Origin: Patescibacteria group bacterium
Lineage (GTDB): Bacteria; Patescibacteriota; Patescibacteriia; UBA10025; JAHIVO01
Assembly: GCA_041660605.1 (NCBI GenBank)
Contig: JBAZWB010000002.1
Location: 1,431-65,430 of the forward strand
DNA: 64,000 bases
Direction of reading: 5' to 3'
Shown piece by piece: positions 4,625-9,808 of this stretch; the first letter of the stretch is position 1, and every line of letters starts with the position of its first letter. Made by a program: the position numbers and the translations under genes. The notes under the pieces were generated by a model. The model was not told the origin of the DNA. It saw nothing but the letters and a program-made list of their open reading frames with translations, and did not search any database.

Positions 4625-5332
4625 TTAAAGGTTAGAAAATAATTTTTTAATATATTTCATCATTGCCTGGTTATCTTCATAATTCATTCTCATTGGCCCT
4701 AATACTCCAATCACGCCGGTTTCTTCTCCTTCCAGGCAGTAGCTGGTGACAATAGAGCTGCAATCTTTGCCAAAGGGATTTTCTTCGCCGATCAAAATCT
4801 TAGCGCCGTCATATTCCTTTATCTGCTTAAATATGTTTTTTACCACTTCATCCAGATGGTCAACCACTTCCGAGATATGCTGGACCAGGTCAATCTTCTG
4901 GAATTCCGGCTGCCGGAAAAGATTTGACAAACCGGTATAATAGAAATTATCCGGGCTGAAGCCGATGAAAACCGCGTCTTTAGATAATTCAGCCAGGCCC
5001 TTGGCGACTTTTTTCACTACTGACTCCTTAGTCAAGCCCTTTTCTTTCAGCAATCCCTCCAGAAACCCTTTCTGCTTGTTAGACAGTTCAATATCTTTTA
5101 AAAAATTCTCAATGTAAAATTTCCATCCTTTTTCCGTGGGTATGCGACCAGCCGACGTGTATGGCTGATAAATAAAGCCTTCTTTTTCCAGGACTACCAT
5201 TTCATTCCTGATAGTCGCTGGTGAAAGCTTAAAATTGTGGTTATCCACAATAGTTTTAGAGGCGACGGTATTGCCGGTTTCAACATGCTCCTTGATTATG
5301 GCGCTAAGTAAAGCGCTTTTTCTGTCATTCAT
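4625..5332 (-). CDS. hrcA: heat-inducible transcriptional repressor HrcA (short form)
   Basis: N-terminal winged-helix signature ...TVASKTIVDNHNFKLSPATIRNEMVVLEKEGFIYQPYTSAGRIPT...; CIRCE operator immediately upstream. Confidence 0.85.
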   Translation of the reverse strand: MNDRKSALLSAIIKEHVETGNTVASKTIVDNHNFKLSPATIRNEMVVLEKEGFIYQPYTSAGRIPTEKGWKFYIENFLKDIELSNKQKGFLEGLLKEKGLTKESVVKKVAKGLAELSKDAVFIGFSPDNFYYTGLSNLFRQPEFQKIDLVQHISEVVDHLDEVVKNIFKQIKEYDGAKILIGEENPFGKDCSSIVTSYCLEGEETGVIGVLGPMRMNYEDNQAMMKYIKKLFSNL

Positions 5333-5358
5333 ATATTTGTATAGGTATTATAAATCAA

Positions 5359-5385
5359 TTAGCACTCTCACGTCAAGAGTGCTAA
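5359..5385. promoter_or_regulatory. CIRCE operator (HrcA binding site) TTAGCACTC-N9-GAGTGCTAA
   Basis: perfect inverted repeat ttagcactc tcacgtcaa gagtgctaa 27-53 nt upstream of hrcA start. Confidence 0.92.
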
Positions 5386-5424
5386 TTCGGGTTTTTTATT
5401 ATTAAGTAACCAAAATACTAGTTA

Positions 5425-6603
5425 CTAGACATTAAAATCAACTGTCGTGCCATTTTCGTTTGTAATAACAGGATACCTGCCAGACAAATCCCACGATTTC
5501 GGAGAAACTAAACCATCAATCGTAACCGTTTTTAATACTTCAGATGTTGTCTCAGGGCTATAAAGACGATACTTAGTTTGATTCCCTTCTATCTCCCCGT
5601 ATAGAATTTGCCACTTTCCATCAGGGCTTGCTCCATTGTGCGGATTGCACGTTTCATTGATGTAATCATATCCTCCCCACTCGCCTTTCGGACTTCCCAC
5701 TGTTTCTTCGGTCTTTGTCTTTAGATTAATAAATGATATTGTCGAAAACGATCCACAACCTTCTCCGTACGGTACAGCAACTAAAACGTCATGTCCACTA
5801 TCCCAAATTATATTGTCAAAAAGAGTGGTTGAAACATGATGAGCTGATTTGTATATACTGATCGGGTCTTCGTTTGTAAAAGAATTACTTGCAATATCAT
5901 ACACGATCCCCCGGGACTCAAGTGGCTGTGGACTCACAAGTCCTGGTTCAAACGCTTGAGAATGAATATCAAATTTACCGATTTCAATTATTATTTTTGA
6001 TTGGTTAATCGATGAGTTTACATTATATACCTGTTCAAAAATCTCACTGCCAACTACCCAAGGGGAAACATTAGGAAGCTTAGTTAGGACTAGAGTGCTA
6101 GTATTAAATAAGTAAAACTCTGGATTAACACCAGTCTCATACTCTATATCCTGATCACCAAAACTATCAAAACGAGTAGTTTTAGTTTCTCCTTTTTTCC
6201 AAAAAAGTAATCCATAGCGCGTCGCCTGAACGTGATACGTACTAGCATCAAACCCAACGTCTAACGATTCTGCTAGAGTAGCAGACAAGTAATGATATAG
6301 TTTGCCATTTTTATAATAAAAATTATAATTACTCCAGGGCGCTTCTTCATGATAATAAGATTGAAATTCACCTGTCACAGTATCACCAGCAGGGTTACTT
6401 GCATTTGTCGCAACATTTGTATTTTGTGCAGCTGCGTTAGTATTCAGATTTGTATTTCGAACAGTGGCGTTCTTATTTACTATTGTTAAAGTCGAGTCAT
6501 CATGAACAAACGCCGCATAAATTCCTACCCCGATAGCTAAAACAACCACGATGATAATCAGCAAAGGGGTTATTTTTATTGAATTCTTCTGTGGAGTTTC
6601 CAT
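5425..6603 (-). CDS. membrane-anchored (signal-anchor) extracytoplasmic protein, hypothetical; Asn/Thr-rich linker
   Basis: 392 aa; METPQKNSIKITPLLIIIVVVLAIGVGIYAA... ; N-terminus paralogous (nucleotide level) to ORF 7502-9778. Confidence 0.7.
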   Translation of the reverse strand: METPQKNSIKITPLLIIIVVVLAIGVGIYAAFVHDDSTLTIVNKNATVRNTNLNTNAAAQNTNVATNASNPAGDTVTGEFQSYYHEEAPWSNYNFYYKNGKLYHYLSATLAESLDVGFDASTYHVQATRYGLLFWKKGETKTTRFDSFGDQDIEYETGVNPEFYLFNTSTLVLTKLPNVSPWVVGSEIFEQVYNVNSSINQSKIIIEIGKFDIHSQAFEPGLVSPQPLESRGIVYDIASNSFTNEDPISIYKSAHHVSTTLFDNIIWDSGHDVLVAVPYGEGCGSFSTISFINLKTKTEETVGSPKGEWGGYDYINETCNPHNGASPDGKWQILYGEIEGNQTKYRLYSPETTSEVLKTVTIDGLVSPKSWDLSGRYPVITNENGTTVDFNV

Positions 6604-6612
6604 ATATTTAAT

Positions 6613-7542
6613 TTATTTGTTACCAAAATACATTGTTATATAACTGGTCACTTCCGGAACATCATATTCCCCTGTCACCTCAGCACTATCGCTTGAATCA
6701 AGTAACTGGTAATTGCCCACTTCACGAAGTTGTAAATATTTAAGTACTGCCCGTACGGTCTGAGGGGAATCAACAAAGAGTTGGTTTACTAAGTCAGGAT
6801 TCATCTGTTGCAATAATGGAATGTTGACTCCATTCTGCCTCATCGCTTCTTCATGTGAAACATAATGAGCAAAATCCACACTTGCCAGGACTAATGATCG
6901 GATAGGAAGTATTTCGTTAAGCGCTGTGGCCAATGCGTCAATTGACTCGTTACTGGTGTTGGCCTGGACTGTAATCGGGATTATTCTCGCGCCTGGAAAA
7001 CTTCGGCGAATAAATGGCACTAATCCGTTTATTGAATGTTCAGCAGTAAATATTTTCTCATCAACCTGAATAACGCTTCTGCCTAACAATTCGTTTATAA
7101 TATCCGAAGTTGGTTCAACTTTTCCATATGGCGTATCCCAAGAAGCTTCTGAAGTAGCTAAGTGATAATAACTGCGATTCATATGATCAGGGCCAATTAG
7201 CACAATTGTATCATATTGCTCTCGGGCACCTAGCGTACCGAAAAAATTACCTAATTTATGATTAGCCAATAAATGATGCGGTACGATCCCTGCCGATACT
7301 GAATCTAGTTCTAAAGTGCCGTCAGCTCCCTCGTATCCGCGATCGTAAACATCAGATTTTAAGAAAAATGAACGATGCGCCAATTCATTTGATGCGTTTA
7401 CTGGTCCCTGATTTATGTTGGCTACAATATCTGAATTATTAACCAGCGCCCAGGCTGTGAAACCGCCAGCAATCAAACCAGCAAGCAGCAACACTATAAG
7501 CTTAGTGAAGCGCACCGCCCCACTCAACCACGGTAAACCCAT
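6613..7542 (-). CDS. Memo-like / AmmeMemoRadiSam-system protein B family protein with N-terminal TM anchor
   Basis: 309 aa; Memo family motifs GIVPHH, IVLIGPDH, EHSINGLVPF, DFAHY; start overlaps upstream gene by 41 nt. Confidence 0.65.
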   Translation of the reverse strand: MGLPWLSGAVRFTKLIVLLLAGLIAGGFTAWALVNNSDIVANINQGPVNASNELAHRSFFLKSDVYDRGYEGADGTLELDSVSAGIVPHHLLANHKLGNFFGTLGAREQYDTIVLIGPDHMNRSYYHLATSEASWDTPYGKVEPTSDIINELLGRSVIQVDEKIFTAEHSINGLVPFIRRSFPGARIIPITVQANTSNESIDALATALNEILPIRSLVLASVDFAHYVSHEEAMRQNGVNIPLLQQMNPDLVNQLFVDSPQTVRAVLKYLQLREVGNYQLLDSSDSAEVTGEYDVPEVTSYITMYFGNK

Positions 7543-9778
7543 ATCGTTGTGGTGTTTTAATATTTAATGGTTCAACTGAATAAGGAGATTCAAGCGGCTG
7601 ATAGTCCATGAACACTCGGATAATAGAATCAGGCGCAGGCGCAACTGTTAAAGGGGCAAGTTTCTCAAATGCGGACTGATCAACAAATGTAATAAAGTAG
7701 TACGGACTATCCTGCAACTTCGGCACCCAAAAGTTTAAAAAGTCCGATTTTTCTTGCGCATTAAGGCCTAATAATGTCAGCTTATCCTGTAAAAGTGCAG
7801 CTACTTCGGTATTTTTTACGACAAAACCCTGCTTAGGCATTTCATAATTAAAACCGAATCCTTCCCAGAAAAGATATGGATAAGTTGCCATACCATCATA
7901 TTCCAGCTCCCCATTTGGGTGAGCTGTAACATTCCACCCGCCGTTTGGATAAACCGGATCAGTCAAAGAAAAGCCGCCGTTTGGAGCCACCTGGACATTT
8001 ACCTTAGTTGTTTGCTCAGGATACAAATAAATGACGGGCTTGCCGCACTCCACTGCGGGCAGAAAAGACACTTGTTTGAAGCGCACCCAATGGTCAAACG
8101 GATCCTTCCAATAGAAGAATGGATGCGAAGCGGTAAACGTTTCATAATCAGGCTTTGTATCTTCCTGCGGTAAATAAAATTGATCGTAAGTTTCCCTTAA
8201 TACTTCATTATTTTTATCAATGTATTCATAAACTTTATCCCCGGTACTGGTCTTGCCTGCGGCCTTCAGTTTGTCCAGTCCGCCCATTTCTTCCTCAGTG
8301 AAGATGGCGTGACAAGTACTACTGCCGCATCCGCCAGTCGGTTCATTAAAAGTATATTCAGCTGAATTTGAATTCCCGTCGCTCCAAGTAATTTCCGGGA
8401 TAAAACTGTTTGAAGACGAGAAATGCTCACGCTCTGCAAAATCTTTTATAAATTTAAGTTTGAGGTGGTATAGCCTTACCATGCCGTCCGGCATAACGAT
8501 GAAATAACAATTATACTGGGGATCGAAATATACTGCTCCCATTGAGGCATCAGTAAACACTGCCTGGGCTTGAGGATATTCAGTAGAACGCTTTTTAAGG
8601 TCGAATATTTCGGCGGCTAAATCAACCTTTGAATTAGGAATATCTATCACTGTTGGATAATCTAATCCAGAAATTGTAGAGGCAATATCATATATAAATG
8701 GAATTGTAAAATATGAAAGATTATCAGAATATTTTTCAAGATAGGTTAAGGACAATTTATCAGGATCGTAAACAACTCTATATAGATCCCGCCACCCCAT
8801 TTCCCCAAATTGCAAAATAACAACCAAATAATCACCGGCATACCTACCATTAGCGATTTCGCCTTCTTTATAATATTGGCGAAACCCATAAGAACCATCC
8901 AGACTTTCGATAACTGGATCAATTATATTTAATTCTATAGGTTCCTTTAGCCAGTTGATTTTCAATGCATATCCGTCGTTAGCTGAAAAAGATGTTGTAT
9001 TTTTTACTGCTGGAATAGATAACAAGGGCATCTTTTCAATAAATTTTACACTTTTTAAAATATCATTAATTACTCCTGCTTGTGTGGTTAATGATCTAAC
9101 AGAACCAGAAAAGTTAATTTCATAAACCCGATCCCCGCCATCAATAAAACCCCATAAATCAGTATAATCCTGGTGCGTTTCCGCTATGTTTAAAATAAAA
9201 ATTTTATTTTCTCCCTCAAACGCAACTGGCTCATTAAAAAGAAATTCTGTTGAACGATTGCTTTTGTACTTTTCAACCCACTGCGCAAGCGTATCATGGC
9301 TGTCGTTTTTATGATAAATTACACTTAAATTAAGGTAATATCTGTCTTGAGAAGTACCATATTGTCCATATGCTGAAAATAATCCATCCCCGTCATTCAA
9401 GCCCATGCCCGATTCATTAAAAGTCCAATCCGTTGGGATATCTAATGATAAACCATGGTCTCCGTGCTGGTACTTTATCGTTTGCCATTTTGTTGATTCA
9501 GAAGCGGCAGTTGTATCATGCGGCGCTACAATCACCGTTGGATTTACCTCAGAATTCACGGGGACATTTATATTGGTAATTTCATTAATATTTTGTTCAA
9601 CCGTATTTACATTGATATTAATGTTTGTATTTCTAACTCCGGTATTTTTATTTGCAAGTTTCGACGTCGAATCATCATGGACAAGCGCCGCATAAATCCC
9701 TACCCCGATAGCTAAAACAACCACGATAATAATCAGCAGTGGCGCAAATTTTAAAGAATGCTTCTGTGGTGTTTCCAT
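7502..9778 (-). CDS. large membrane-anchored extracytoplasmic protein (758 aa), hypothetical
   Basis: signal-anchor METPQKHSLKFAPLLIIIVVVLAIGVGIYAA then Asn/Thr-rich linker; long uninterrupted ORF. Confidence 0.75.
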   Translation of the reverse strand: METPQKHSLKFAPLLIIIVVVLAIGVGIYAALVHDDSTSKLANKNTGVRNTNININVNTVEQNINEITNINVPVNSEVNPTVIVAPHDTTAASESTKWQTIKYQHGDHGLSLDIPTDWTFNESGMGLNDGDGLFSAYGQYGTSQDRYYLNLSVIYHKNDSHDTLAQWVEKYKSNRSTEFLFNEPVAFEGENKIFILNIAETHQDYTDLWGFIDGGDRVYEINFSGSVRSLTTQAGVINDILKSVKFIEKMPLLSIPAVKNTTSFSANDGYALKINWLKEPIELNIIDPVIESLDGSYGFRQYYKEGEIANGRYAGDYLVVILQFGEMGWRDLYRVVYDPDKLSLTYLEKYSDNLSYFTIPFIYDIASTISGLDYPTVIDIPNSKVDLAAEIFDLKKRSTEYPQAQAVFTDASMGAVYFDPQYNCYFIVMPDGMVRLYHLKLKFIKDFAEREHFSSSNSFIPEITWSDGNSNSAEYTFNEPTGGCGSSTCHAIFTEEEMGGLDKLKAAGKTSTGDKVYEYIDKNNEVLRETYDQFYLPQEDTKPDYETFTASHPFFYWKDPFDHWVRFKQVSFLPAVECGKPVIYLYPEQTTKVNVQVAPNGGFSLTDPVYPNGGWNVTAHPNGELEYDGMATYPYLFWEGFGFNYEMPKQGFVVKNTEVAALLQDKLTLLGLNAQEKSDFLNFWVPKLQDSPYYFITFVDQSAFEKLAPLTVAPAPDSIIRVFMDYQPLESPYSVEPLNIKTPQRYGFTVVEWGGALH

Positions 9779-9808
9779 AAATTTATTTAATTTAAAAATT
9801 CTTAATTT

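What the first reader, a model, noticed from the sequence alone, without database searches (positions are those of the whole stretch)
6489..9778. Nucleotide-level duplicated signal-anchor 5' modules on two otherwise unrelated surface-protein genes
The first about 115 nt of ORF 5425-6603 (region 6489-6603) and of ORF 7502-9778 (region 9664-9778) are roughly 88% identical in DNA. They encode METPQK[N/H]S[I/L]K..PLLIIIVVVLAIGVGIYAA[F/L]VHDDST. The mature domains are 392 aa and 758 aa and have no detectable similarity. Together with the zinc-knuckle case this is a second instance of 5' module exchange in the same 15 kb. It suggests recombination or gene conversion that shuffles export or anchoring leaders between accessory genes. 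Alternatively it suggests conserved 5' mRNA/leader function.
Basis: seen in the sequence. Interest (0 to 1): 0.55.

Follow-up and report, generated by a model that had tools for sequence, protein, structure and literature searches.

The report
Shared membrane-anchor cassette on two genes
Two neighbouring, otherwise unrelated surface-protein genes of an uncultured Patescibacteria (CPR) bacterium carry the same N-terminal membrane-anchor segment because one gene's 5' end was copied onto the other inside the genome, which is a real but fairly ordinary case of modular gene evolution.

Summary
ORF A (5425-6603, minus strand) and ORF B (7502-9778, minus strand) share a 5' module. Identity is 86% over the first 114 nt and 80% over 178 nt, and a 29-nt core is identical. 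The rest of the two proteins shows no homology, even profile against profile. Three independent assemblies carry the same locus, so it is not a mis-assembly.

The module encodes a short Lys-containing tail, a 22-residue hydrophobic helix, a VHDDST motif and the start of an Asn/Thr-rich stalk. This looks like a Sec-type signal-anchor.

Orthologues of A and B in other Patescibacteria (about 50-55% identical) carry quite different anchors. The sharing therefore arose inside this lineage, probably from B to A.

Synonymous sites show a mosaic. The helix core is nearly identical at the codon level (15 of 17 codons, P = 1e-6). The flanks are conserved only as protein, with synonymous sites at the random level and dN/dS about 0.1. 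This fits an older copy kept by selection, with the core later re-homogenised by short-tract gene conversion.

I found no RNA structure, Rfam match, lipobox, pilin signal or nearby recombinase.

It resembles the conserved 5' cassettes of Mycoplasma vsp/vpma surface-protein genes, without their switching machinery. Interest is modest.

The parts
5425..6603 (-). ORF A, 392 aa. N-terminal anchor module, then a disordered Asn/Thr-rich stalk (about aa 34-72), then a beta-propeller ectodomain (aa 75-392). Last gene of the operon.
   Evidence: ORF list. AlphaFold2 model with mean pLDDT 83.6: helix 12-33, pLDDT below 50 for 34-72, all-beta for 75-392. Foldseek hits are generic beta-propellers such as TolB, lactonases and Kelch. 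No Pfam or NCBIfam match. The family has 28 representative clusters.
7502..9778 (-). ORF B, 758 aa. The same anchor module and stalk, then a large multi-domain ectodomain. Its C-terminal part (VECGKPVIYLYP...) is widespread in Patescibacteria.
   Evidence: No Pfam, NCBIfam or PDB sequence match. The AlphaFold2 model has low confidence (pLDDT 41), so it was not used.
6489..6603 (-). Copy 1 of the shared 5' module (codons 1-38 of A): METPQKNSIKITPLLIIIVVVLAIGVGIYAAFVHDDST.
   Evidence: Alignment and codon table. NG86 for codons 1-38: dS 0.52, dN 0.067, dN/dS 0.13.
9664..9778 (-). Copy 2 of the shared 5' module (codons 1-38 of B): METPQKHSLKFAPLLIIIVVVLAIGVGIYAALVHDDST.
6511..6561 (-). Helix-core tract in A (codons 15-31). 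This is the putative recent gene-conversion tract and contains the exact 29-mer 6524-6552.
   Evidence: 15 of 17 codons are identical against 5.3 expected (P = 1.3e-6); dS 0.15, dN 0. Exact 29-mer.
9686..9736 (-). Helix-core tract in B (codons 15-31). Contains the exact 29-mer 9699-9727.
6379..6488 (-). Asn/Thr-rich stalk-coding region of A (codons 39 to about 75). Similarity to B decays here and is gone by about +200 nt.
   Evidence: Sliding identity. Best 60-nt in-frame identity between the A and B stalks is 63%, against 50-57% for unrelated Asn/Thr-rich stalks in the window. Same-codon count is at the random level, 5 of 10 against 4.8 expected.
9494..9663 (-). Asn/Thr-rich stalk-coding region of B (codons 39 to about 95).
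6604..6618 (-). Short A/T-rich stretch upstream of A's ATG that is shared with B (TAAATTAAATA). It includes the TAA stop of the Memo-like gene. A starts 9 nt after that stop.
   Evidence: Alignment. Identity drops to background beyond about -20 to -30. The repeat limit is 6618.
9779..9793 (-). Corresponding A/T-rich stretch upstream of B's ATG.
6613..7542 (-). Memo-like gene (309 aa) with its own, different N-terminal hydrophobic segment. It lies between the two module copies and overlaps the end of B by 41 nt.
   Evidence: Pfam PF01875 E = 2e-25. TIGR04336 E = 2.6e-29. The B-Memo pair is conserved across Patescibacteria.
9809..10495 (-). First gene of the putative operon (228 aa): a different anchor, an Asn/Thr-rich stalk and a Cys-rich ectodomain.
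   Evidence: Its N-terminus matches that of an L004 protein with an unrelated body.

Best explanation
The two copies are paralogous 5' cassettes. Each carries the translation start region, a short Lys-containing cytoplasmic tail, a 22-residue hydrophobic helix, an acidic VHDDST motif just outside the membrane, and the start of an Asn/Thr-rich stalk.

Such a cassette would act as an uncleaved Sec/SRP-type signal-anchor (N-terminus in, C-terminus out). It would tether two different ectodomains to the cell surface of a Patescibacteria (Kerfeldbacteria-like) bacterium: a beta-propeller in A and a large multi-domain protein in B.

The sharing arose by DNA transfer within the genome, after this lineage split from its nearest sequenced relatives. 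The most likely route is a copy of B's 5' end onto the gene that sits in the variable slot between the Memo-like gene and hrcA. The peptide has since been kept by purifying selection. The helix core was probably re-homogenised later by short-tract gene conversion between the two direct repeats, which lie 3.2 kb apart.

Shown: common descent of the DNA, unrelated gene bodies, different anchors in orthologues, and mosaic synonymous divergence. Inferred: the B-to-A direction, gene conversion as the mechanism, and the membrane topology.
For: Common descent of the DNA:
- 23 of 32 same-amino-acid codons are identical against 11.2 expected (P = 1e-5).
- In the core, 15 of 17 codons are identical against 5.3 expected (P = 1.3e-6).
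- A 29-mer is identical in both copies and found only there in the window.

Unrelated bodies:
- BLASTP finds nothing beyond residue 78.
- hhalign of the A family (17 sequences) against the B family (4 sequences) gives only a 17-column match.

Origin after the lineage split:
- B orthologues are 48-55% identical in the body but only about 17-38% identical in the first 40 residues.
- The nearest A orthologue is 55% identical in the body but about 23-29% in the anchor.
- A and B within the window share 33 of the first 38 residues.

Direction:
- Four of the six other full-length B orthologues start with ME[T/Q/L]..P-type anchors. The best outside match of the module is the B orthologue of L012/L008.
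- No other A-family member has this anchor. The A family carries at least three other anchor types.

Variable slot:
- L015 has B-Memo-HrcA, L004 has B-Memo-541aa-287aa-HrcA, and the window has B-Memo-A-HrcA.
- In L004 the two inserted genes also share an anchor type with that genome's B.

Mosaic divergence:
- dS is 1.33 for codons 1-14, 0.15 for codons 15-31 and 1.68 for codons 32-52; dN is 0.15, 0 and 0.19.
- Same-codon counts in the flanks are at the random level (8 of 15 against 5.8 expected, P = 0.17). Core against flanks gives Fisher P = 0.05.

Anchor character:
- AlphaFold2 predicts a helix at residues 12-33 followed by a disordered stalk in A (confident model). The low-confidence B model also shows a helix at 12-33.
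- Lys6 and Lys10 lie before the helix and Asp35 and Asp36 after it, which fits the positive-inside rule (read directly from the sequence).

An independent parallel: adjacent lipoprotein genes in L037 share their 5' end at 87-97% identity with dS 0.12.
Against: - There are only two sequences and about 40 codons, so the core-versus-flank contrast is borderline (Fisher P = 0.05-0.02). It could reflect chance or selection on synonymous sites.
- No close relative exists in the databases searched (all are at or below 55% identity), so timing and direction rest on distant outgroups.
- Gene conversion needs pre-existing homology, and how the first copy was joined to an unrelated body is unknown.
- Cleavage by signal peptidase I after IYA(30) cannot be excluded, because no signal-peptide predictor was available. 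In that case the module would be a signal peptide rather than an anchor.
- The rest of the roughly 960-kb genome could not be scanned, so more copies may exist.
Confidence: 0.7

Rival explanations
1. A single partial duplication or fusion, with no later gene conversion. B's 5' end was copied once in front of A's body. The uneven synonymous divergence would then be sampling noise, or selection on codons in the helix core (for example on translation speed or SRP recognition).
For: Overall dS for the module is 0.52, an intermediate value. The core-versus-flank contrast is only borderline significant (P = 0.05). Only 17 core codons are involved.
Against: Flank synonymous sites are statistically indistinguishable from random (8 of 15 against 5.8 expected), while the core is at 15 of 17 (P = 1.3e-6). 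The core uses a mixture of synonymous codons (ATT/ATC, GTG/GTT/GTA, GGG/GGA, GCT/GCG) in the same order in both copies, which simple codon bias does not explain.
Confidence: 0.2
2. The module is a sequence-specific address or assembly tag. The identical tails, helices and VHDDST motifs would be kept because both proteins must be recognised by the same partner, or must pair through their helices. The partner might be the membrane-anchored Memo-like enzyme encoded between them. The helix carries an A23xxxG27xxxA31 small-residue motif. Each genome would then evolve its own tag for this locus. This reading is compatible with the best explanation for the origin of the copies.
For: The flanks are conserved as protein although their synonymous sites are saturated (dN/dS about 0.11), whereas anchors of orthologues diverge almost completely. 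In L004 the three genes around the Memo-like gene also share one anchor type, different from the window's. The genes appear to be co-transcribed: B overlaps the Memo-like gene by 41 nt, A starts 9 nt after it, and the CIRCE element and promoter-like site of hrcA follow A.
Against: The Memo-like protein itself carries a different anchor. No known sorting-signal family matches. In four other genomes with a full-length B orthologue (L012-L015) no gene near Memo shares B's anchor, and in L006 the match is only weak. No N-terminus-only hits were found in the 1.84-billion-protein library. The helix motif is a common feature of membrane helices.
Confidence: 0.15
3. A conserved 5' mRNA element (leader structure, regulatory RNA or membrane-targeting signal) is what is being preserved, rather than the peptide.
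For: Identity starts about 12-20 nt upstream of the ATG and includes the start region. The core shows conservation at synonymous sites.
Against: The predicted folds are no more stable than those of shuffled sequence (z = +0.67 and +0.49) and differ between the two copies. There is no Rfam match at E <= 1. Ten to eleven synonymous changes against five to six non-synonymous changes (dN/dS 0.13) point to constraint on the protein.
Confidence: 0.03
4. Assembly artefact, or chance similarity between hydrophobic leaders.
For: None found.
Against: The locus is identical in three independent assemblies from different runs. The copies differ at 14% of positions, so they would not have been collapsed. 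The codon-level test gives P = 1e-5. No shuffle produced a 29-mer match.
Confidence: 0.01

Closest known systems
Mycoplasma vsp / vpma (and vlp) variable surface lipoprotein gene families
   Same: Clustered surface-protein genes share a conserved 5' end that encodes the export signal, while the mature parts share no significant homology (PMC2268961, Introduction). The organisms have small genomes and depend on their surface proteins.
   Different: In Mycoplasma the signal is a lipoprotein signal with an AAKC lipobox. The conserved part includes about 72 nt of 5' UTR that holds the recombination sites. An adjacent tyrosine recombinase (Xer1/Mbr) inverts DNA around a single promoter to give phase variation (PMC2268961). 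Here there is no Cys or lipobox. Upstream identity is only about 12-20 nt. There are two direct-repeat copies in one operon, and no recombinase domain among the precomputed Pfam hits for the genes listed within about 10 kb on either side. There is no evidence of switching.
Concerted evolution / short-tract gene conversion between bacterial paralogues (for example tuf genes or rRNA operons; from general knowledge)
   Same: The copies within one genome are far more alike than orthologues between genomes. There is a patch of very low synonymous divergence inside an older duplicate.
   Different: Here the homologous tract is only about 50-200 nt and is joined to unrelated gene bodies. Classical cases homogenise whole genes.
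Family-specific Sec signal peptides on diverse surface proteins (YSIRK-G/S and KxYKxGKxW signals of Gram-positive bacteria; class III, pilin-like signals on Sulfolobus sugar-binding proteins; from general knowledge)
   Same: One recognisable N-terminal export sequence is found on many unrelated ectodomains. In the relatives sampled here, one anchor type (M..[KR]GF..V..WYY.[QE]HKD[DE]) occurs on at least five unrelated bodies.
   Different: None of those motifs is present in the window's module. NCBIfam models, which I expected to cover the prepilin and other sorting signals, gave no hit. The window's module was found on only two genes.
Adjacent lipoprotein genes in a Candidatus Peregrinibacteria MAG (locus L037, 8678-9448 and 9485-11254)
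   Same: This is another CPR genome. Two neighbouring genes in the same orientation share about 150 nt of 5' end (from -30 to +120, 87-97% identity) and have unrelated bodies. One of them is a homologue of B's C-terminal domain.
   Different: The signal is a lipoprotein signal (FFAGC lipobox). The event is more recent and uniform (dS 0.12).

Membership tests
Sec-type N-terminal signal-anchor (type II membrane protein) | A short positively charged N-terminal region followed by a hydrophobic helix of about 20 or more residues | tested here: met
   Lys6 and Lys10 are followed by a 22-residue apolar segment. AlphaFold2 predicts a helix at residues 12-33 in the confident A model and also in the low-confidence B model.
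Sec-type N-terminal signal-anchor (type II membrane protein) | Charge distribution that fits the positive-inside rule (N-terminus in, C-terminus out) | tested here: met
   The net charge is positive before the helix and acidic after it (HDD). This is read directly from the sequence.
Sec-type N-terminal signal-anchor (type II membrane protein) | Not cleaved by signal peptidase I; the protein stays in the membrane | not testable with these tools
   A weak possible cleavage site, G-I-Y-A(30)|A, exists. No signal-peptide predictor or experiment was available.
Mycoplasma-type phase-variable surface lipoprotein loci (vsp/vpma/vlp/vsa) | Lipoprotein signal peptide with a lipobox cysteine | tested here: not met
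   There is no Cys in residues 1-80 of A or B.
Mycoplasma-type phase-variable surface lipoprotein loci (vsp/vpma/vlp/vsa) | A conserved 5' untranslated region that carries the recombination sites (about 72 nt in vpma, PMC2268961) | tested here: not met
   Identity falls to background (23-33%) beyond about -30 nt. A starts 9 nt after the stop of the preceding gene.
Mycoplasma-type phase-variable surface lipoprotein loci (vsp/vpma/vlp/vsa) | An adjacent site-specific recombinase, with inverted gene orientations that allow switching | tested here: not met
   No integrase or recombinase Pfam family appears among the precomputed hits for the genes listed in L001, about 10 kb on either side of B; many of those genes have no hit on record. 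Both copies lie in direct orientation. Three assemblies show the same arrangement.
Type IV pilin-like (class III) signal peptides | Prepilin peptidase motif ([KR]G|F..E5) or a match to a prepilin N-terminal domain model | tested here: not met
   The window module has no Gly-Phe junction. NCBIfam gave no hit at E <= 1 for A, B, or the relatives' KGF-type anchors.
Paralogues under gene conversion (concerted evolution) | The copies within one genome are more similar to each other than each is to its orthologue | tested here: met
   The A and B anchors share 33 of 38 residues. Anchors of orthologues are 17-38% identical, although the bodies are 48-55% identical.
Paralogues under gene conversion (concerted evolution) | A discrete tract of low synonymous divergence within older, diverged sequence | tested here: inconclusive
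   dS is 0.15 in the core against 1.3-1.7 in the flanks. Fisher P = 0.05-0.02 on very few sites.
Known structured RNA leaders (Rfam) | A match to a covariance model, or a fold more stable than that of shuffled sequence | tested here: not met
   No Rfam match at E <= 1 in 5000-11000. z = +0.67 and +0.49.

The most novel reading that the evidence does not exclude
The anchor may be more than a generic membrane tether. It could be a lineage-specific address or assembly tag that each of these CPR genomes keeps identical on the ectoproteins encoded around the conserved B-Memo gene pair. The tag would be maintained by both selection and gene conversion. New ectodomains dropped into the variable slot between the Memo-like gene and hrcA would then be recruited to the same surface complex.
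Probability: 0.15. Interest if true: 0.55.

Novelty: new member of a known kind. Interest (0 to 1): 0.3.

Why it matters
CPR/Patescibacteria are thought to live attached to other cells and to depend on a fast-evolving surface proteome that is almost entirely unannotated. This locus gives a datable example of how that proteome is built. A ready-made cassette (start region, anchor, stalk) is reused on unrelated ectodomains. Orthologous ectodomains wear different anchors in different genomes.

This has practical consequences. N-termini of such proteins should not be used for orthology or family assignment. Anchor type may instead mark which proteins belong together within one genome. If the anchor proves to be a specific assembly tag, it would offer a way to find surface complexes in organisms that cannot be cultured. 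Otherwise this is an ordinary case of domain shuffling combined with gene conversion.

Tried and rejected
Searches for more copies of the module all came back empty:
- The word-indexed protein search with the 52-aa module found no candidate, not even A or B themselves, so this search is uninformative.
- The scan of GTDB species-representative genomes found nothing.
- The scan of JGI metagenome contigs found nothing.
- A phmmer search of full-length A against 1.84 billion representative proteins returned 28 hits. All were A-domain relatives and none matched the N-terminus only. B itself was also missed, probably because its 50%-identity cluster is represented by an orthologue with another anchor. 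Absence of further copies is therefore not proven.

Other tests that gave nothing:
- RNA-element hypothesis: folding and Rfam were both negative.
- Known sorting signals or domains: Pfam and NCBIfam gave nothing for A, B or the relatives' anchors.
- Remote homology between A and B: hhalign was negative.
- PDB sequence searches with both family profiles were negative.
- The structure of B had pLDDT 41 from a 4-sequence alignment and was unusable, so no fold search was run.
- A further collinear 16-nt match (6296-6311 vs 9476-9491) lies in different reading frames in the two genes and was dismissed as chance.
- A mobile-element origin: no inverted repeats flank either copy.

Full report
**1. Observation**

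A self-comparison of the whole 64-kb window yields only two long direct-repeat families. One is 6441-6618 vs 9616-9793 (178 nt, 80%). The other is the zinc-knuckle pair 17039-17128 vs 19260-19349 (81%).

The first repeat covers the 5' ends of ORF A (5425-6603, minus strand, 392 aa) and ORF B (7502-9778, minus strand, 758 aa).
- The first 114 coding nt are 86% identical without gaps.
- A 29-mer (6524-6552 and 9699-9727) is identical in both copies and occurs nowhere else in the window; no shuffle produced a match.
- Identity starts about 12-20 nt upstream of the ATG, peaks at +45 to +105 (97%), and fades inside the Asn/Thr-rich region by about +200.
- BLASTP aligns residues 1-78 (64% identity, E = 1e-20) and nothing else.

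**2. Is it more than chance or artefact?**

Among 32 positions of codons 1-38 where both genes encode the same non-Met/Trp residue, 23 use the same codon. The window's codon usage predicts 11.2 (P = 1e-5). This excludes convergence of hydrophobic leaders.

The same locus is present in three independent assemblies (ENA ERZ27249449, a 960-kb contig; Logan SRR18595301; Logan SRR6484324). There is no difference in the A-Memo-B region, and one SNP in about 20 kb lies elsewhere. The two copies differ at 14% of positions. Mis-assembly is therefore very unlikely, although read coverage itself could not be examined.

**3. Organism and gene context**

The proteins are annotated in NCBI as coming from a Patescibacteria group MAG. 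The nearest relative found is a Candidatus Kerfeldbacteria MAG, locus L004 (DnaK 84%, GrpE 67%, HrcA 57%, B 52% identity).

The gene order on the minus strand is as follows.
- A 228-aa anchored Cys-rich protein (9809-10495).
- B, which overlaps the next gene by 41 nt.
- A Memo-like protein with its own, different hydrophobic N-terminus (6613-7542; PF01875 and TIGR04336).
- A, which starts 9 nt after the Memo-like gene's stop.
- A promoter-like site and a CIRCE operator (5357-5387), followed by hrcA-grpE-hsp20-dnaK.

A is thus the last gene of a probable four-gene operon, and the two module copies are direct repeats 3175 nt apart.

**4. The proteins**

The module reads METPQK[N/H]S[I/L]K[I/F][T/A]PLLIIIVVVLAIGVGIYAA[F/L]VHDDST.
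- It has two Lys residues before a 22-residue apolar stretch and acidic residues after it. AlphaFold2 models residues 12-33 as a helix in both proteins, though only the A model is confident. In A, residues 34-72 are disordered.
- This fits an N-in/C-out Sec-type signal-anchor followed by an Asn/Thr-rich stalk. Other genes of the window share this architecture (9809-10495 and 12023-12832).
- Cleavage after IYA(30) cannot be excluded with the tools available.

A's ectodomain (residues 75-392) is a confident beta-propeller (mean pLDDT 83.6). It gives only generic propeller matches in the PDB. B is a multi-domain protein of unknown fold; its model was unusable. Profile-profile comparison of the A family (17 sequences) with the B family (4 sequences) finds no relationship. 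Neither protein matches Pfam, NCBIfam or PDB sequences. "Otherwise unrelated" is therefore correct.

**5. Comparative evidence**

B has few full-length orthologues, at 48-55% identity (P0002-P0004; loci L004, L006, L008/L012, L013, L014, L015). A belongs to a small family of 28 representative clusters; the nearest members are 55% identical. The anchors of these orthologues are quite different from the window's module, at 17-38% identity over the first 40 residues.

The A family alone carries at least four anchor types:
- the window's type;
- an M..[KR]GF..V..WYY.[QE]HKD[DE] type (P0006, P0022, P0025);
- a type like that of window gene 9809-10495 (P0021, P0009);
- a ..GWW..NLEK type (P0020, P0030).

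The KGF/WYY type also sits on at least five unrelated bodies in L004, L009 and L010. The window gene 9809-10495 shares its anchor and stalk (37% over 99 residues) with an L004 protein that has an unrelated body. Anchor and body therefore have different histories in these lineages.

A and B are far more alike in the anchor than either is to its own orthologues. The sharing must therefore come from DNA transfer inside this lineage after the split from the sampled relatives, whether as a recent copy or as concerted evolution.

Four of the six other full-length B orthologues begin with ME[T/Q/L]..P-type anchors. The best outside match of the module is the B orthologue of L012/L008. No other A-family member has this anchor. 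B is therefore the likely donor, though the support is moderate.

**6. A variable slot**

- L015 has B-Memo-HrcA with nothing in between.
- L004 has B-Memo-541aa-287aa-HrcA.
- The window has B-Memo-A-HrcA.

In L004 the two inserted genes share an anchor type with that genome's B (49-58% identity over 26-35 residues, and about 65-70% at DNA level over about 70 nt). That anchor type differs from the window's. Twice, therefore, genes in this slot carry the resident B-type anchor.

**7. Age and selection**

Nei-Gojobori estimates for codons 1-38 are dS 0.52, dN 0.067 and dN/dS 0.13. The signal is mosaic.

| Codons | Region | dS | dN |
|---|---|---|---|
| 1-14 | flank | 1.33 | 0.15 |
| 15-31 | helix core | 0.15 | 0 |
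| 32-52 | flank | 1.68 | 0.19 |

- In the core, 15 of 17 codons are identical (P = 1.3e-6).
- In the flanks, same-codon counts are at the random level (8 of 15 against 5.8 expected, P = 0.17).
- In the stalk they are also random (5 of 10 against 4.8 expected).
- The core-versus-flank contrast gives Fisher P = 0.05.

The simplest reading has two stages. An older copy of the whole module has been held by purifying selection on the peptide. A more recent short conversion tract then covered the helix core. With so few sites this remains suggestive rather than proven.

**8. How common is this?**

I compared the first 80 residues of 1073 ORFs from the window and about 85 CPR loci. I kept only pairs with no similarity beyond residue 120.
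- Such N-terminus-only matches are about 10 times more frequent within loci than between loci.
- Only three are strong: the A/B pair (95 bits), the window's zinc-knuckle pair (55 bits), and two adjacent lipoprotein genes in a Peregrinibacteria MAG (L037, 90 bits).
- The L037 pair shares about 150 nt of 5' end, with dS 0.12. One of its members is a homologue of B's C-terminal domain.

The process recurs in CPR but is infrequent, and this window holds two of the three cases.

**9. Alternatives tested**

- A structured or regulatory 5' RNA: folds are no better than for shuffled sequence (z = +0.67 and +0.49) and differ between the copies. There is no Rfam match. Synonymous changes outnumber non-synonymous ones.
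- A Mycoplasma-like switching locus: there is no lipobox, no conserved 5' UTR, no recombinase domain among the genes listed within about 10 kb on either side, the copies are in direct orientation, and three assemblies show the same arrangement.
- A pilin-type signal: no motif is present and no NCBIfam model matched.
- A mobile element: no flanking inverted repeats were found.

**10. Comparison with what is known, and verdict**

The closest known analogues are the Mycoplasma vsp/vpma families. There the 5' UTR and the signal-peptide region are conserved across genes whose mature parts share no homology (PMC2268961). Family-specific signal peptides of Gram-positive bacteria and archaea are a further analogue (from general knowledge). 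The present case works like these in being a reusable export cassette. It lacks their defining features: lipoprotein processing, recombinase-driven switching, and recognisable motifs. Mechanistically it is best filed under paralogue duplication with gene conversion. It is a new, small example of a known kind in a poorly studied phylum.

**11. Limits**

Only two copies and about 40 codons are available. No close relatives exist in the databases searched. The rest of the genome could not be scanned, and all searches for further copies came back empty but with known blind spots. Topology and cleavage are inferred, not measured.

Noticed in passing
window 17039-17128 and 19260-19349 (ORFs 12948-17126 and 17593-19347, minus strand): This is a second 5' module pair, 81% identical in DNA. 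It encodes a zinc-knuckle-like N-terminus, MPEQ[Q/R]P.N.C..CG[Y/F]P.E.GEHDCPNAP, on a 1392-aa and a 584-aa protein that are otherwise unrelated. For codons 1-30, dS is 0.58 and dN is 0.18. A 1524-aa protein in L015 begins with a similar zinc-knuckle N-terminus (BLASTP aligns only about the first 130 residues, 27% identity), which hints that the module belongs to the large protein.
   Followed up: partly
window 19297: This is the only base that differs between the window and three other assemblies over about 20 kb. It lies inside the zinc-knuckle repeat. It is a synonymous change (GTT against GTG, codon 17 of the 584-aa ORF). The other assemblies carry the base found in the paralogous copy.
   Followed up: partly
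window 6613-9778; loci L004, L006, L012-L090: B's C-terminal domain (VECGKPVIYLYP...) and a membrane-anchored Memo-like gene form a conserved pair across Patescibacteria. A Memo homologue is present in 66 loci (window included) out of the 85 sets of ORFs compared, and lies immediately downstream of 35 of 79 B-domain genes. The two genes often overlap, and the Memo-like part is often within a protein of about 600 aa. The function is unknown. No AMMECR1 or radical-SAM partner was seen among the genes listed for the loci examined, though this was not checked systematically.
   Followed up: partly
L037 8678-9448 and 9485-11254 (Candidatus Peregrinibacteria CAIRYL010000119.1): Two adjacent lipoprotein genes share about 150 nt of 5' end (from -30 to +120, 87-97% identity, dS 0.12). 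The shared part encodes M[R/K]N[I/L]LFL[I/L]PLLFFAGCENPMQTAITPE..., and the bodies are unrelated. The second gene is a homologue of B's C-terminal domain.
   Followed up: partly
window 9809-10495 vs L004 8816-9361: The anchor and stalk of the 228-aa window protein are 37% identical over 99 residues (E = 4e-12) to those of an L004 protein that carries a Big_5 domain. The bodies are unrelated (Cys-rich against Big_5). This is another mismatch between anchor and body at a syntenic position.
   Followed up: partly
L004 10001-15624; L009 4390-7164; L010 1171-2691; proteins P0022 and P0025: A recurrent anchor type, M..[KR]G[FL][IV]..V......[GA].[AS]W[YW][YF]..[HN][KQ]D[DE], sits on at least five unrelated ectodomains in several Kerfeldbacteria-like genomes. 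The KGF junction loosely recalls prepilin signals, but no NCBIfam model matched.
   Followed up: partly
window 5357-5387: A canonical CIRCE operator (TTAGCACTC-N9-GAGTGCTAA), with a promoter-like site (5376-5347), lies directly upstream of hrcA-grpE-hsp20-dnaK. It marks the end of the surface-protein operon.
   Followed up: no
L006 1990-7813: In this genome a 1655-aa alpha-2-macroglobulin-like protein is followed by a second Memo-like gene that overlaps it. This is in addition to the genome's B-Memo pair.
   Followed up: no
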